A stretch of DNA of 63,453 nt, the filler included, from Kipferlia bialata (Eukaryota), in the NCBI GenBank assembly GCA_003568945.1. It is 6 parts of 6 records of this genome, joined end to end, with 100 filler letters (N's around TTAATTAATTAA, not from the genome) between each part and the next. Parts side by side here need not be neighbours in the genome. Positions count along the whole stretch, not along the records: positions 1 to 11,253 come from BDIP01001265.1; positions 11,354 to 22,605 come from BDIP01001266.1; positions 22,706 to 33,956 come from BDIP01001267.1; positions 34,057 to 45,286 come from BDIP01001270.1; positions 45,387 to 52,174 come from BDIP01001271.1; positions 52,275 to 63,453 come from BDIP01001272.1. One strand, given 5' to 3'. Below the pieces are notes generated by a model. That model had not been told where the DNA came from, made no database searches, and saw only the letters and a program-made list of their open reading frames with translations. Each line of letters begins with the position of its first letter. Positions within the stretch are counted from its first letter, which is position 1. The position numbers and the translations under genes are program-made. Below, piece by piece: positions 2,725-63,046 of the stretch.

Positions 2725-5700
2725 ATGGACTTCATGGCACCAGTATGCAGGGGTCTACAGGTATATACCAAGTATTCATATTATTATTATGGACTCAGTA
2801 TTCCAATCTCCGTATACCTATCTCTATATACTATTGATATCCTTAATGTCAGGATGCCTTTGTGGACCAGTCTCTTCCTCTCCCTCCCTCTACACCCATA
2901 TTCTCAGGATGCGTTTGTGGACCAGATCCCAGACATCTCATATATATATATACACCCATCTCTCTCTCTCTCCCTCTACACCCTTATTGTCAGGATGCCT
3001 TTGTGGACCAGATCCCAGACATCTCATATATATATAAACACCCATCTCTCTCTCTCTCTCCCTACACCCTTATTCTCAGGACGCCTTTGTGGACCAGATC
3101 CCAGACATCGACCTCAACGCAGACAAATATCTCTCTCTCTCCCTCCCTCTACACCCTCATAGCCAGAACGCGTTTGTGGACCAGTTTATCTTTCTCTCCC
3201 CCTACACCCTTATTCTCAGGATGCGTTTGTGGACCAGATCCCAGACATCTAAAATATATATACAAATATCAATCTCTATACATATATATGGTGATATATC
3301 CCTAAACATCAGGATGCCTTTGTGGACCAGATCCCAGACATCGACCTCAACGCAGACAAGTACCTGGAGCCAGCTACCAACGAGGTATGTATCTTAATAT
3401 ACTTGGTATACAGTAATCGTGGGTTGGATTAATTGTGGGTGTAGAGAGGGTACATATACATAGGAGTTATGCAGACAAGTACCTGGAGCCAGCTACCAAC
3501 GAGGTACGTTACTATCTATTCTCTCTCCCTCTAGACCCTTTTTCTCTCCCTCTACTCCCTTATTCCCAGGAGATCAAGATGGTCATCGAGTACATGGGCG
3601 ACGCAGCCATGAAGGTATGGACTATTTGTTCTCTCCCCCTACACCCTTATTACCATGTCACTGATGTCTCTGAGCGTGTAGTCTCTCTCTCTCTCTCTGC
3701 CTATACCCTTAATGTCAGGTCACTGATGTCTCTGAGGATCTGTCTGCCATGGCCTCTATGTATTTTCTCCCTCTCTCTCTCTCTCTCTACACCCTTAATG
3801 CCAGGTCACTGATGTCTCTGAGGATCTATCCGCCATGGCCTCCATGTGGCAGAGTGGATACGTGTCTGTCCTGGTGACAAACTTCTTCGGTATGTCTCTC
3901 TCTCTTATCAGACTACTACACGCCATAACGATTTAGTGAATCCATCGGTTTGAAATGGGATTACTCTATTAATGTATGTCTTTGCCTGAATGTGTATGTG
4001 TATTCCACTCACACCCAGGAGGTCTCTTCCTGCTCCTCACCTACCTCTTCCTCGGTGCAGAGGTCTACAAGAGGTATATTCATAAGTATATGATATGTAA
4101 TTCATTCATAAGTATATGTATAGAATTATATGTAGATTTGTACGACCACTTTCTCTCTCCTGGAGTACCAGACCTCTGTTCTCTCTCCCTCTACACACTC
4201 TCTCTCTCCCTCTACTCTCTCTTTCCCCCTCTACACCCTTTATCCCAGACTCCTCATGGAGGGCAAGGCCGACAAGATGGGCCTTCTCTTCGCAGTCTTC
4301 AAGGCATCCTTCAACCGTACGTACAGTCTCTCTCTCTCTCTCCCTACACCCTTATTCCAGTTGTCCCGTTTGTGGCATATTCTCTCTCCCTCTACACCCT
4401 TATTGTAGTTGTCCAGTTTGTGGCACATTCTCTCTCTCTCTCTCTCTCTCTACACCCTTATTCCAGTTGTCCAGTTTGTGGCATGTGCCATGTGGCACAG
4501 GCTCAGTGAGCGTATCGGAAGGAAGGTATCAGAGATTACCAATATATATATATGCATATGTCTTAATCTGAAGTGTAGTAGAATGCCCTCCTCTTTCTCT
4601 CTCCCCCTACCTCCTTATTCTCAGTGGTGCATGATGTTTGCCTACATCATCTATGGCCTGTGCTTCTGGGGCATGGCATTCTGGACAACAACATTCAACG
4701 GTTAGTATATATATATACATACAATAGATATGTATAGAATATGTATATAATATAGTATGTATAGTAATGTACTATAGTACTATGTACATCTACGGCCTGT
4801 GCTTCTGGGGCATGGCCTTCTGGACATCAACGGTATGGATATATACACACGCATATACATATAGTATATGTATAGTATATATATTTATTATACAATAGTA
4901 CTATATACGTCAATGGCCTGTGCTTCTGGGGCATGGCATTCTGGACAACAACATTCAATGGTATGTTATGCATATGTATAGTATATAATGAATACAATGC
5001 AGTATACTATACTATAGCACTATATACATCTACGGCCTGTGCTTCTGGGGCATGGCATTCTGGACAACAACATTCAACGGTATGTATATATTGATATATA
5101 CTATATATATACTATGCTGTAGTATACTATAGTACTATCTTTCTCTCTCTCTCTCTCTACACCCTTATGTCAGGCATGCTCATCTGGAGGGCCTTGTCTG
5201 GCTTCGCTGCCATCATCCACCCCCTGATGGTATGTGTATATATATATATATAGTGTAGGTATATATATAGAGAGAGAGATGGTATGTATGTATATATGTG
5301 GGTACTATTTCTCTCTTGCTGCCATCATCCACCCACTCATAATATGTACTCATGTACATGTTAATATATACAAATAGCATATTCTCTCTCTCTCTCAATA
5401 TATATAAATATTCAAGTATTTACAGAGTCTTACCCTCAGAACACCATCGCTGCTGACCTTGCCCCCCTCAAGCAGAGGGCCACATGGCTGGCATTCAGCT
5501 ATGGATCTATGGTGAGTGATCTATACATAGCTATATAGCCTCGTCTCCACACTCATATGCACAAGTCCTTTGACTCACTCACTATCCTTCAGGCAATGAG
5601 GTGGCGTTTCCATTCCTATACTCTCTCTCTCTCTCTGATTATAGGTTGCCGGTACCGTCTTCTCTGGCGTTGTCATCTCTCTCTCTCTCTCTCTCTCCCC

Positions 5701-62200: not shown

Positions 62201-63046
62201 AATATATATATATATAATTATACTCAATTCACCTGTGTCTGCTGGGCATGTGTCTGTGTCACACATGGAGACAGAGGGCCTAAAGTGCAGGTCCTAGATG
62301 GTTAGAGGGTATTATGTACATAACGTATACTATAAGGAAAATACATATATGAAGAGTAAGATGGCTTAAAGTCCAGCTCCTTACCAAAAGGTAAGAGAAT
62401 ATGTATTGATTTGAGTAAGAATACATCCATAGTTCAGAATGTCTGAGTGCAATCAAAAGAGGGGGAGGAAGACAGTACATTCACCAACTCTCCACCCAGC
62501 GCCATATGCCTTACACAAGCTTCACTATGGATACATACAATGCATACCTGCAACTGTTGCTCCAGTCTACCGATGAACCTCTGCATGTATTGACCTAGTG
62601 TAAGGGTACAGTAATAAGTGTATTATTATATGGATATGACTGTATTGGAACAATTCTTGGCTTTCATTGCACCTCTATTTATTACTACGCACTTCTTACA
62701 AGAGGGGGAGAGGGGAGAGATGAGTCACTAGTCGGCAACTCTATTCATATATATATAGAGAGAGAAAGAAACTGGAACACAGACAACACTCTCGTCCCAC
62801 ATGTCTGGTACCCAAGGAGCTGTGGGTACATACATAATATACATATTAGTCTCATGTATACTCATACATATTGTGCCCCATATATATTTACATATCCACC
62901 CACCTGGCACGCCCTGACCTATGCGTCAACGCACACAATATAAGTCAGGTATATATAACAATACATATAGAATATGAATTGGTATATACTACATATACAG
63001 TCACAGCCACCCACCTGGCACTCCTTGTCCTATGGGTGTGGATGAC
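56267..63046 (-). CDS. D-2-hydroxyacid dehydrogenase, glyoxylate/hydroxypyruvate reductase A (GhrA/YcdW)-like; 5' exons uncertain
   Basis: DFVIVWG / AIFSFGAGVDHL..IPLIR / LTDDQRGQKMSEYVL / VGFLGYGKLA / DVLIVLCPLTPETR / HLLNERTLSLLPKGACLINASR / GPVVD / DVFETEPLPPSDSLWGMDNVYITPHCSAIT / ..GVVDMERMY*, colinear with E. coli GhrA. Confidence 0.88.

What the first reader, a model, noticed from the sequence alone, without database searches (positions are those of the whole stretch)
2850..62280. Window-wide 'exon echo' system: introns filled with truncated, synonymously recoded copies of the adjacent exon
Seen in the sequence: in at least eight unrelated genes on both strands, exons are preceded by copies of [acceptor + exon 5' part] and/or followed by copies of [exon 3' part + GT donor], separated by (TA)n/(CT)n filler. 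For example, exon 3312-3384 has six upstream echoes from 2852 and a downstream echo at 3469-3503. Echoes keep the splice site at their outer end but break off mid-exon, and their differences from the intact exon are strongly biased to synonymous sites. Inference: neutral decay of tandem duplicates should not give that bias, so echoes were probably captured from diverged functional alleles, or they recombine back into the expressed exon. Candidate mechanisms are break repair with templated insertion, direct-repeat excision resembling ciliate IES/pointer removal, or non-canonical splicing. Some echoes do decay (TGA in 59064-59131, indel near 58960), so not all are in current use. I know of no description of this architecture.
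Basis: partly seen in the sequence, partly recalled or inferred. Interest (0 to 1): 0.92.

Follow-up and report, generated by a model that had tools for sequence, protein, structure and literature searches.

The report
Introns stacked with old exon halves
In this single-celled eukaryote (likely Kipferlia bialata), about four in ten predicted exons are flanked by truncated copies of themselves, which are left out of the mRNA in the one gene tested and differ mostly at silent sites; they are likely halves of older alleles left behind by DNA-break repair, so the introns would hold a record of the species' allelic diversity.

Summary
I found 129 echoes beside 57 of 147 curated exons in 9 of 12 genes. 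Polarity is strict: 5' parts lie upstream, 3' parts downstream, none reversed or whole. Each echo adds about 110 nt of intron (r=0.92). In the one gene tested (2.2 kb), DNA unitigs carry echo junctions at single-copy depth, and a spliced RNA contig uses only the intact exons.

The synonymous bias holds: 0-fold/4-fold divergence is 0.23 (0.17-0.30), against 0.57-0.59 simulated for dead-on-arrival duplicates. It persists in changes private to single echoes. Echo splice sites stay strong, while the intron bases beside them are largely unlike the exon's own. So most echoes are not plain decayed duplicates: they were coding, spliced sequence until shortly before they were stranded.

Best mechanism (inferred, 0.5): a mid-exon break is repaired by one-sided copying from a diverged homologue and then end-joined. 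The old half-exon stays in the intron, and exon-definition splicing ignores it. No IES-like excision and no use in mRNA was seen. Against this reading, the strain shows no heterozygosity in the tested stretch. Ten literature searches found no description.

The parts
2725..10691 (+). 22-exon membrane-transporter-like gene (MFS label by eye, no Pfam hit on a 25-aa piece); 29 echoes kept at 13 exons
   Evidence: exons 1-8 in RNA contig
3313..3384 (+). Intact exon used in mRNA, no other letters
   Evidence: X2 record 9
2853..3249 (+). Six upstream echoes [acceptor + 18-47 nt of exon 3313]: 2853, 2908, 2994, 3080, 3167, 3220
   Evidence: DNA records 1-4
3471..3505 (+). Downstream echo [last 33 nt of exon + GT], identical to exon, unrelated intron flank
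   Evidence: DNA records 5-6
3657..3761 (+). Two upstream echoes of exon 3805-3889; the distal one has lost its AG
8812..9187 (+). Exon 8937-9040 with an upstream echo (8812-8871; AGG/CGT Arg switch) and a downstream echo (9130-9187; 5 silent changes)
19471..20519 (-). Seven downstream echoes at three exons of a minus-strand gene (18.9-21.0 kb)
22771..27610 (-). 13-exon gene fragment, 18 echoes kept at 10 exons, including 25716-25772 (AGC/TCC Ser switch) and three downstream echoes 23300-23603
29144..30379 (-). Array of 12 detected upstream echoes of terminal exon 28981-29096; all keep AG; several acceptor classes recombined with exonic haplotypes
28981..33770 (-). 11-exon gene fragment, 27 echoes kept at 9 exons
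34187..45065 (+). 55-exon SNF2/Helicase_C (CHD1-like) gene; only 14 echoes at 10 exons; most introns short
41852..41869 (+). Chimeric echo: 5' part of next exon joined through a 4-nt microhomology to 3' part of previous exon; 18-nt in-frame AG..GT unit
56082..62379 (-). D-2-hydroxyacid dehydrogenase-like gene, 31 echoes at 9 of 11 exons
59967..60036 (-). Downstream echo of exon 60179-60281: 7 silent changes and 1 replacement (at the inner edge) in 70 nt
60401..60464 (-). Downstream echo of exon 60529-60623: 13 differences in 64 nt, only 2 amino-acid changes
60715..61340 (-). Six upstream echoes of exon 60529-60623, each with a different acceptor
58928..59136 (-). Two decayed downstream echoes of exon 59203-59308 (a stop codon; a 3-nt insertion)
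56134..56195 (-). Echo of terminal exon lying past the stop codon and ending at the stop; no splice site involved
45471..49604 (+). Control: 10-exon gene with long exons and short introns, no echo

Best explanation
Echoes are genomic half-exon-plus-intron-end duplications that are left out of the mRNA in the gene tested, and most are likely halves of formerly functional, diverged alleles stranded by break repair. Shown: position, polarity, silent bias, strong splice sites, divergent intron flanks, presence in DNA and skipping in RNA (the last two for 2.2 kb only). Inferred steps: (1) a double-strand break falls inside an exon, the only part alleles share when introns are unalignable. (2) One end invades the homologue's exon and copies about 100 nt outward, through the splice site into the homologue's intron. 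(3) The extended end is joined to the other end by polymerase-theta-type end joining at (TC)n/(TA)n tracts instead of annealing. (4) The exon now has a new half and a new splice site; the resident half stays behind as an echo and decays neutrally. (5) Splicing by exon definition ignores a lone acceptor or donor, so the event is tolerated and repeats, lengthening the intron. I put 0.85 on 'echoes were constrained coding sequence for most of their divergence' and 0.5 on this whole route. A minority with matching flanks are likely plain sister-templated duplicates.
For: p0/p4 = 0.23, family bootstrap 0.17-0.30. Simulations through the same detector give 1.02 (neutral), 0.57-0.59 (dead on arrival) and 0.27 (capture then slight decay). 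Changes private to a non-farthest echo: 23/1070 vs 26/312, ratio 0.26, P=3e-6 against 1. Echo-echo ratio 0.26 with p4 0.20, like echo-exon. In multi-echo families p4 is flat from nearest to farthest (36/193 vs 28/158) while p0 doubles (23/681 vs 40/576, P=0.004): silent divergence is present at birth. 12 of 43 multi-hit codons are synonymous Arg/Leu/Ser switches, not all independent. p4 is 0.17-0.25 in five unrelated genes. AG is kept in 62 of 69 and GT in 42 of 50. Acceptor score medians are 4.2 real, 2.5 echo and -6.6 other AG; donor medians 1.85, 2.09 and -0.63. Flank identity is near background at -3..-5 but above it in the branch-point zone -7..-12, and is uncorrelated with exonic divergence. 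No echo leaves <14 nt of exon uncopied (0 of 115; 28 expected under uniform breaks). (TC)>=3 follows 47 of 73 upstream breaks; (GA)>=3 precedes 7 of 56 downstream breaks and follows 0 of 73 upstream ones. Metamonads lack Ku/DNA-PKcs, and K. bialata has PolQ, Spo11, Rad52 and Rad10 (PMC8516963).
Against: No second allele is seen: one search lists no other letters in 2600-4800, and RNA depth in exon bins equals one contig exactly. The diverged template is therefore not in this strain at >=90% likeness there. Intron flanks are far more diverged (12-nt identity 0.545, background 0.387) than 4-fold sites (0.80), which alleles explain only if introns turn over much faster or silent sites are constrained. 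Polymerase-theta tandem duplications in C. elegans did not use the homologue (PMC13031629). Diversity of about 0.2 suggests a large population, which should purge such DNA (own reasoning). Divergence is overdispersed (26 identical echoes, 9.6 expected), so one allele pool is too simple. The <14-nt rule fits selection against near-whole copies equally well. No relative or second strain was found, and the species name is inferred.
Confidence: 0.5

Rival explanations
1. Standby cassettes: arrays expand and contract by unequal exchange or single-strand annealing. Echo acceptors and half-exons are repeatedly put back in front of the exon and so stay under selection now.
For: 7 of 15 informative site pairs are four-gamete in the 29144-30379 array, and acceptor classes recur with different exonic haplotypes. 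Multi-echo blocks repeat with period 244. Splice sites remain strong.
Against: p0 doubles with distance. There are 4 stops, 3 gaps and 7 of 69 lost AG. Amino-acid changes are no more conservative than random (BLOSUM -0.39 vs -0.53). No echo-skipping DNA joint is among the 15 rows shown (165 not shown).
Confidence: 0.2
2. Two-subgenome origin: the diverged halves come from an ancient hybrid or an asexually diverged homologue later lost by homozygosis, not from a population of alleles.
For: p4 is similar in five genes. The locus is now homozygous. Two k-mer peaks, read as diploidy, are reported for K. bialata (PMC5874029).
Against: One array holds about six acceptor classes, yet its farthest echo differs at only 4 of 37 sites. 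Two haplotypes re-diverging serially would leave distal echoes far more decayed.
Confidence: 0.12
3. Plain sister-templated tandem duplications that are dead on arrival; the polarity comes only from purging of whole-exon and intra-exon copies.
For: Polarity follows from any duplication with one break in the exon. 12 of 69 upstream and 8 of 50 downstream echoes have flanks above the 99th percentile of unrelated pairs. 26 echoes are identical. The microhomology chimera at 41852-41869 fits.
Against: It predicts p0/p4 0.57-0.59 against 0.17-0.30 observed. 12 of 17 upstream echoes with identical exonic parts have background-level flanks.
Confidence: 0.06
4. Echoes are used in RNA: an upstream and a downstream half rebuild an alternative exon by non-canonical or recursive splicing.
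For: In 11 of 16 exons with anchored echoes on both sides, the two halves together cover the exon.
Against: 39 of 57 exons have echoes on one side only, and break positions on the two sides are uncorrelated (rho -0.07). The RNA contig has 0 other letters and intron bins are empty. Contigs drop rare forms, and decay could hide them.
Confidence: 0.05
5. Programmed DNA excision between direct repeats (IES-like).
For: Direct repeats flank unique filler.
Against: The mRNA is made from the unexcised arrangement at GT-AG joints, and DNA depth over echoes is near that of unique sequence.
Confidence: 0.03
6. Assembly artefact: haplotypes concatenated through microsatellites.
For: The draft is a short-read type with gaps, and three N gaps have duplicated flanks of 12, 43 and 45 nt. 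Only 2.2 of 63 kb were tested, and X1 may be the source sample.
Against: Unitigs with 0 differences bridge three echo junctions with >=31 letters on both sides (2870, 3184, 3674) and three more with 24-30 on the short side, at depth 348-480 vs 479. A diploid cannot supply 12 different copies.
Confidence: 0.03

Closest known systems
Tandem duplication across an intron-exon boundary in potato RdRp (PMC4974935, abstract seen)
   Same: The unit is intron 3' part + acceptor + exon 5' part, as in upstream echoes.
   Different: It is a single case, and there the upstream copy's acceptor is used and a new intron is gained. Here copies are skipped, stacked up to 12 or more, mirrored on the donor side, and carry silent divergence and different intron ends.
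Polymerase-theta-completed tandem duplications after extended D-loop synthesis (tnsl-1 worms, Arabidopsis tonsoku; PMC13031629, abstract and passages)
   Same: One end is extended by recombination and then end-joined, giving head-to-tail copies with microhomology or inserts.
   Different: Those are 25-300 kb, randomly placed, and both copies come from one chromosome. Here units are about 100 nt, exon-anchored, and the inferred template is a diverged allele.
Duplicated exons in Drosophila Y-linked genes with an MMEJ bias (PMC8794474, passages)
   Same: Exon copies accumulate within genes where Ku-dependent repair is thought weak.
   Different: These lie on a heterochromatic chromosome without a homologue. 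The passages seen describe no half-exon polarity or silent bias.
Mutually exclusive tandem exons (recalled; PMC7969005 seen only as a search listing)
   Same: Adjacent exon copies diverge under purifying selection.
   Different: Those are whole exons with both splice sites; 0 of 133 hits here are whole.
Silent cassettes for gene conversion (pilS, vls, VSG; recalled)
   Same: Partial, unexpressed copies lie near an expressed sequence.
   Different: Cassettes diversify the protein. Echoes conserve it and sit beside housekeeping exons.

Membership tests
Tandem duplication across an exon-intron boundary | Head-to-tail copy with one break in the exon and one in the adjacent intron | tested here: met
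   119 of 133 hits anchored with the expected polarity, none reversed; adjacent introns only
Tandem duplication across an exon-intron boundary | Both copies start identical, intron flank included, and the dead copy decays neutrally | tested here: not met
   p0/p4 0.23 vs 0.57-0.59; 51 of 69 and 37 of 50 flanks at or below the 95th percentile of unrelated pairs
Polymerase-theta-completed duplication | Microhomology or templated insert at the junction | tested here: inconclusive
   One clear 4-nt microhomology; junctions are microsatellite-rich; the template is unseen, so no count was possible
Polymerase-theta-completed duplication | Dependence on PolQ | not testable with these tools
   The gene is listed for K. 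bialata (PMC8516963 supplement); no genetics
Mutually exclusive exons | Whole copies with both splice sites, alternatively included | tested here: not met
   0 whole copies; one isoform seen in one gene
Ciliate IES excision | Segment removed from DNA before expression | tested here: not met
   DNA depth 348-480 across echoes; RNA joins at GT-AG ends of the unexcised gene; 2.2 kb only, joint table cut
Introner elements | Unrelated introns similar along their length, supplying both splice sites | tested here: inconclusive
   Only an acceptor-end cassette is shared (18 of 135 real, 10 of 69 echo acceptors); echoes themselves are exon-specific
Recursive splicing | AG directly followed by GT at the internal site | tested here: not met
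   Echoes of exon 3313 begin AG|GA and are skipped; some other exons do begin with GT, not counted
Exon-definition splicing | A lone proximal acceptor or distal donor is ignored; the site paired across an exon is used | tested here: met
   The mRNA skips six, two and two upstream echoes and uses the proximal donor; intron bins 0-4 vs 216. One gene, steady-state contigs; decay of mis-spliced RNA not excluded
Kipferlia bialata (source organism) | Direct sequence identity to a named record | not testable with these tools
   Own hits are unnamed. Indirect fit: GC 47.2% vs 47.8%, contigs about 11 kb vs N50 10.5 kb, about 2.2 curated introns/kb vs 2.45, AdhE-like gene, branch point close to AG

The most novel reading that the evidence does not exclude
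A genome-wide exon-half exchange cycle. Because introns are unalignable between alleles, recombination works on exons alone and keeps replacing half-exons together with their splice sites. Displaced halves stay as selected standby cassettes that can be recruited back. Intron length, splice-site turnover and a multi-allele archive of diversity near 0.2 would all come from this one process, in a protist that defines exons with a reduced spliceosome.
Probability: 0.2. Interest if true: 0.93.

Novelty: new variant of a known kind. Interest (0 to 1): 0.8.

Why it matters
First, it gives a concrete source of intron length: in this window each echo adds about 110 nt to a base of about 110 nt (r=0.92), and 58 of 70 introns of 150 nt or more hold one. 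Second, functional-looking acceptors are skipped over a few hundred bases. That points to exon definition in a protist, where intron definition is thought to predominate (PMC2397502) and the spliceosome is reduced (87 of 174 proteins in K. bialata, PMC6679479); the arrays are a natural mutagenesis set for splice-site choice. Third, if the capture reading is right, a single homozygous genome records many past alleles and implies silent diversity near the highest known in eukaryotes (comparison recalled). Fourth, it would show what break repair leaves in genes when Ku-dependent joining is absent. Fifth, automatic gene models in this genome can mistake echoes for exons, as my first parse did.

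Tried and rejected
No whole genome is held, so no genome-wide count was possible. Reads could be laid on one 2.2-kb stretch only. The run search listed no holder on record as RNA; X2 is taken as RNA because its contig joins exons at GT-AG ends. Metagenome scans found nothing: acceptor-cassette pattern, 0 matches; long-exon protein, 458 pattern hits, none confirmed. The ARL3 homologue search gave two unnamed 100% records and then 75% or less, so no outgroup. Three look-ups in earlier findings returned nothing. An exon-specific break hotspot shared by both sides was rejected (rho -0.07, n=16). Echo length scales with exon length (rho 0.58) but fits simple truncation of an 18-73 nt range. A base-composition cause of the silent bias was rejected, since p0 is below p4 for all four bases. 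Detector bias was rejected by simulation. Exonised echoes or whole-exon duplicates among neighbouring exons were not found (best score 13 in 135 pairs). Conservative amino-acid replacement was not found. The detector misses short or heavily decayed echoes seen by eye (3167; three near 26720-26860; short ones in the 29-30 kb array), so old echoes are under-sampled.
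Full report
Setting. The window is six contigs of 6.8-11.3 kb joined by spacers, from an intron-rich eukaryote. It carries an AdhE-like gene, ARL3, a SNF2 helicase, an alpha-kinase and a D-2-hydroxyacid dehydrogenase. GC is 47.2% and the branch point sits close to the AG. This fits published figures for Kipferlia bialata: GC 47.8%, N50 10.5 kb (PMC8516963) and 2.45 introns/kb (PMC5874029). The name is an inference, since the window's own records are unnamed. No whole genome is held.

The observation. I curated 12 open gene models: 147 exons and 135 introns, median internal exon 75 nt, introns 52-1476 nt. Exons match their adjacent introns in 70 of 270 pairs, against 39 of 15,857 for other genes and 7 of 3,718 for non-adjacent introns of the same gene. 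Of 133 hits, 68 are 5' parts upstream, 51 are 3' parts downstream and 14 are internal; none is reversed or whole. After dropping 4 doubtful hits, 129 echoes remain at 57 exons in 9 genes. They are unevenly spread: 13 of 22, 10 of 13, 9 of 11 and 9 of 11 exons in four genes, 10 of 55 in the helicase gene, and none in three genes. Echo number predicts intron length (slope 110 nt, intercept 110, r=0.92, one gapped intron left out). 58 of 70 introns of 150 nt or more hold an echo.

Real in DNA, absent from mRNA. Both points were tested on 2600-4800 only. DNA unitigs with no differences run across echo, filler, next echo and exon at depth 348-480, against 479 on the longest record. Three junctions are bridged by 31 or more letters on each side, and three more by 24-30 on the short side. 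The table is cut, 2987-3130 is not among the listed pieces, and X1 may be the assembly's own sample. One 690-nt X2 contig joins the intact exons with no other letters: seven pieces are listed, and the 45-nt exon is inferred from the gap in the record. Depth in six exon bins equals this one contig exactly; four intron bins are 0, and the bin over echo 3220 is 4 against 216. A few bins exceed the one-contig value (for example 92.8 at 2822-2895), which I attribute to the high-copy acceptor cassette but did not resolve. So the spliceosome passes six good-looking acceptors to reach the one followed by a donor. That is what exon definition predicts, though contigs hide rare forms and decay could remove them.

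Silent bias. Echo versus exon: 118/2648 differences at 0-fold, 123/745 at 2-fold and 142/728 at 4-fold sites; the ratio is 0.23, family bootstrap 0.17-0.30. The same detector returns 1.02 for neutral decay, 0.57-0.59 for dead-on-arrival duplicates, and 0.27 for constrained divergence of 0.17 plus decay of 0.03. The bias holds for each base, between echoes (0.26), and for changes private to a non-farthest echo, which should be neutral if echoes were simple snapshots (23/1070 vs 26/312, P=3e-6). Silent divergence does not grow with distance from the exon, but replacement divergence doubles (P=0.004). Arg, Leu and Ser codon-family switches occur. The replacements that exist are not conservative, and there are 4 stops and 3 gaps. 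This is a two-phase history: long constraint, then short neutral decay.

Intron flanks. AG is kept in 62 of 69 and GT in 42 of 50 echoes. Echo donors score like real ones; echo acceptors score a little lower but far above other intronic AGs. Yet bases -3 to -5 match the exon's own acceptor barely more than unrelated acceptors do, while the branch-point zone matches better. 12 of 17 upstream echoes with identical exonic parts have background-level flanks. Each echo therefore brings its own working intron end. An echo of a terminal exon ends at the stop codon, so the outer boundary is where coding conservation ends. About one echo in six has a flank clearly like the exon's (20 of 119) and can be an ordinary duplicate.

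Breaks. No echo leaves fewer than 14 nt of its exon uncopied (0 of 115; 28 expected). Units are about 106 nt. (TC)n follows 47 of 73 upstream breaks, against 6 of 54 comparable places in echo-free introns. Sense-strand (GA)n, nearly absent from echo-free introns (1 of 75), precedes 7 of 56 downstream breaks. This partial mirror suggests that the 3' end at the mid-exon break is extended or primed on dinucleotide tracts (inference).

Mechanism (inferred). A break inside an exon leaves two ends whose only homology with the other allele is the exon. One end invades, copies half an exon, the splice site and 50-70 nt of the other allele's intron, and is then end-joined to the second end. The displaced half is the echo. 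This accounts for polarity, the uncopied remainder, unit size, silent divergence at birth and foreign flanks. Metamonads lack Ku and DNA-PKcs, fornicates lack Rad51A, and K. bialata lists PolQ, Spo11, Rad52 and Rad10 (PMC8516963). Against it: no second allele is visible in this strain at the tested locus; flanks are more diverged than silent sites by an unexplained margin; identical echoes are in excess (26 vs 9.6); and theta-dependent duplications in worms did not use the homologue (PMC13031629). Mosaic copies in the largest array (four-gamete pairs 7 of 15) keep open the rival that echoes are recruited back.

Prior art. The unit is known from a single potato case, where it created an intron (PMC4974935, abstract), and exon copies accumulate on Drosophila Y chromosomes (PMC8794474, passages). 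Ten full-text searches listed nothing that describes this architecture. The K. bialata genome paper has no word starting with 'duplicat' or 'allel' (parts 1-2 of 6 read; supplements not read). The library lacks most subscription papers. Of PMC6679479 I saw passages; of PMC8516963 passages, section 8 and supplement rows; of PMC13031629 the abstract and passages; of PMC2397502 the abstract.

Verdict. A real, widespread and apparently undescribed gene architecture, built from a known kind of mutation but with an unexpected signature of past function. Interest 0.8; new variant of a known kind.

Noticed in passing
window 25984-25995, 60068-60077, 6108-7102: N gaps whose flanks repeat each other for 43, 45 and 12 nt: likely scaffolder-made duplications, distinct from echoes. 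The 995-N gap lies right after an echo and may be false or hide more copies.
   Followed up: partly
window 2959-2993 and many acceptors: A long shared acceptor cassette, (TC)n then a fixed 3' motif, in 18 of 135 real and 10 of 69 echo acceptors. Summed DNA depth reaches 692,000 against 479, so it is very high copy in the genome; possibly ectopic conversion or a mobile intron end.
   Followed up: partly
window 41852-41869 (+): 18-nt in-frame unit with both AG and GT, made of the next exon's start and the previous exon's end; a candidate for exon or intron gain. Inclusion in mRNA untested.
   Followed up: partly
window 38783-38784 (+): GC-AG intron in the SNF2 helicase gene, required for the frame.
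   Followed up: no
window 21583-22497 (+): AdhE-like bifunctional aldehyde-alcohol dehydrogenase with introns (PDB hits E about 2e-4 on 29 aa); one short upstream echo at 21997.
   Followed up: partly
window 52450-53930 and 54360-55680: Two tandem, diverged copies of an intron-poor region with long minus-strand frames; no echoes noticed; identity unknown.
   Followed up: no
window 26414-26860 (-): Four upstream echoes agree on a peptide start that differs from the live exon at several residues; the live 5' half looks recently replaced by a more distant version.
   Followed up: partly
window 51664-52044 (+): ARL3 has two 100% database records on contigs of 6,788 and 11,192 nt; the window holds the shorter.
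   Followed up: no
window 15499-18105 (-): RING-like, vWA and alpha-kinase gene with long exons and no echoes.
   Followed up: no
window 18613-18751: 29-nt direct repeat separated by a near-palindromic TA-rich insert inside a long minus-strand frame; could be a templated insertion or a new intron.
   Followed up: no
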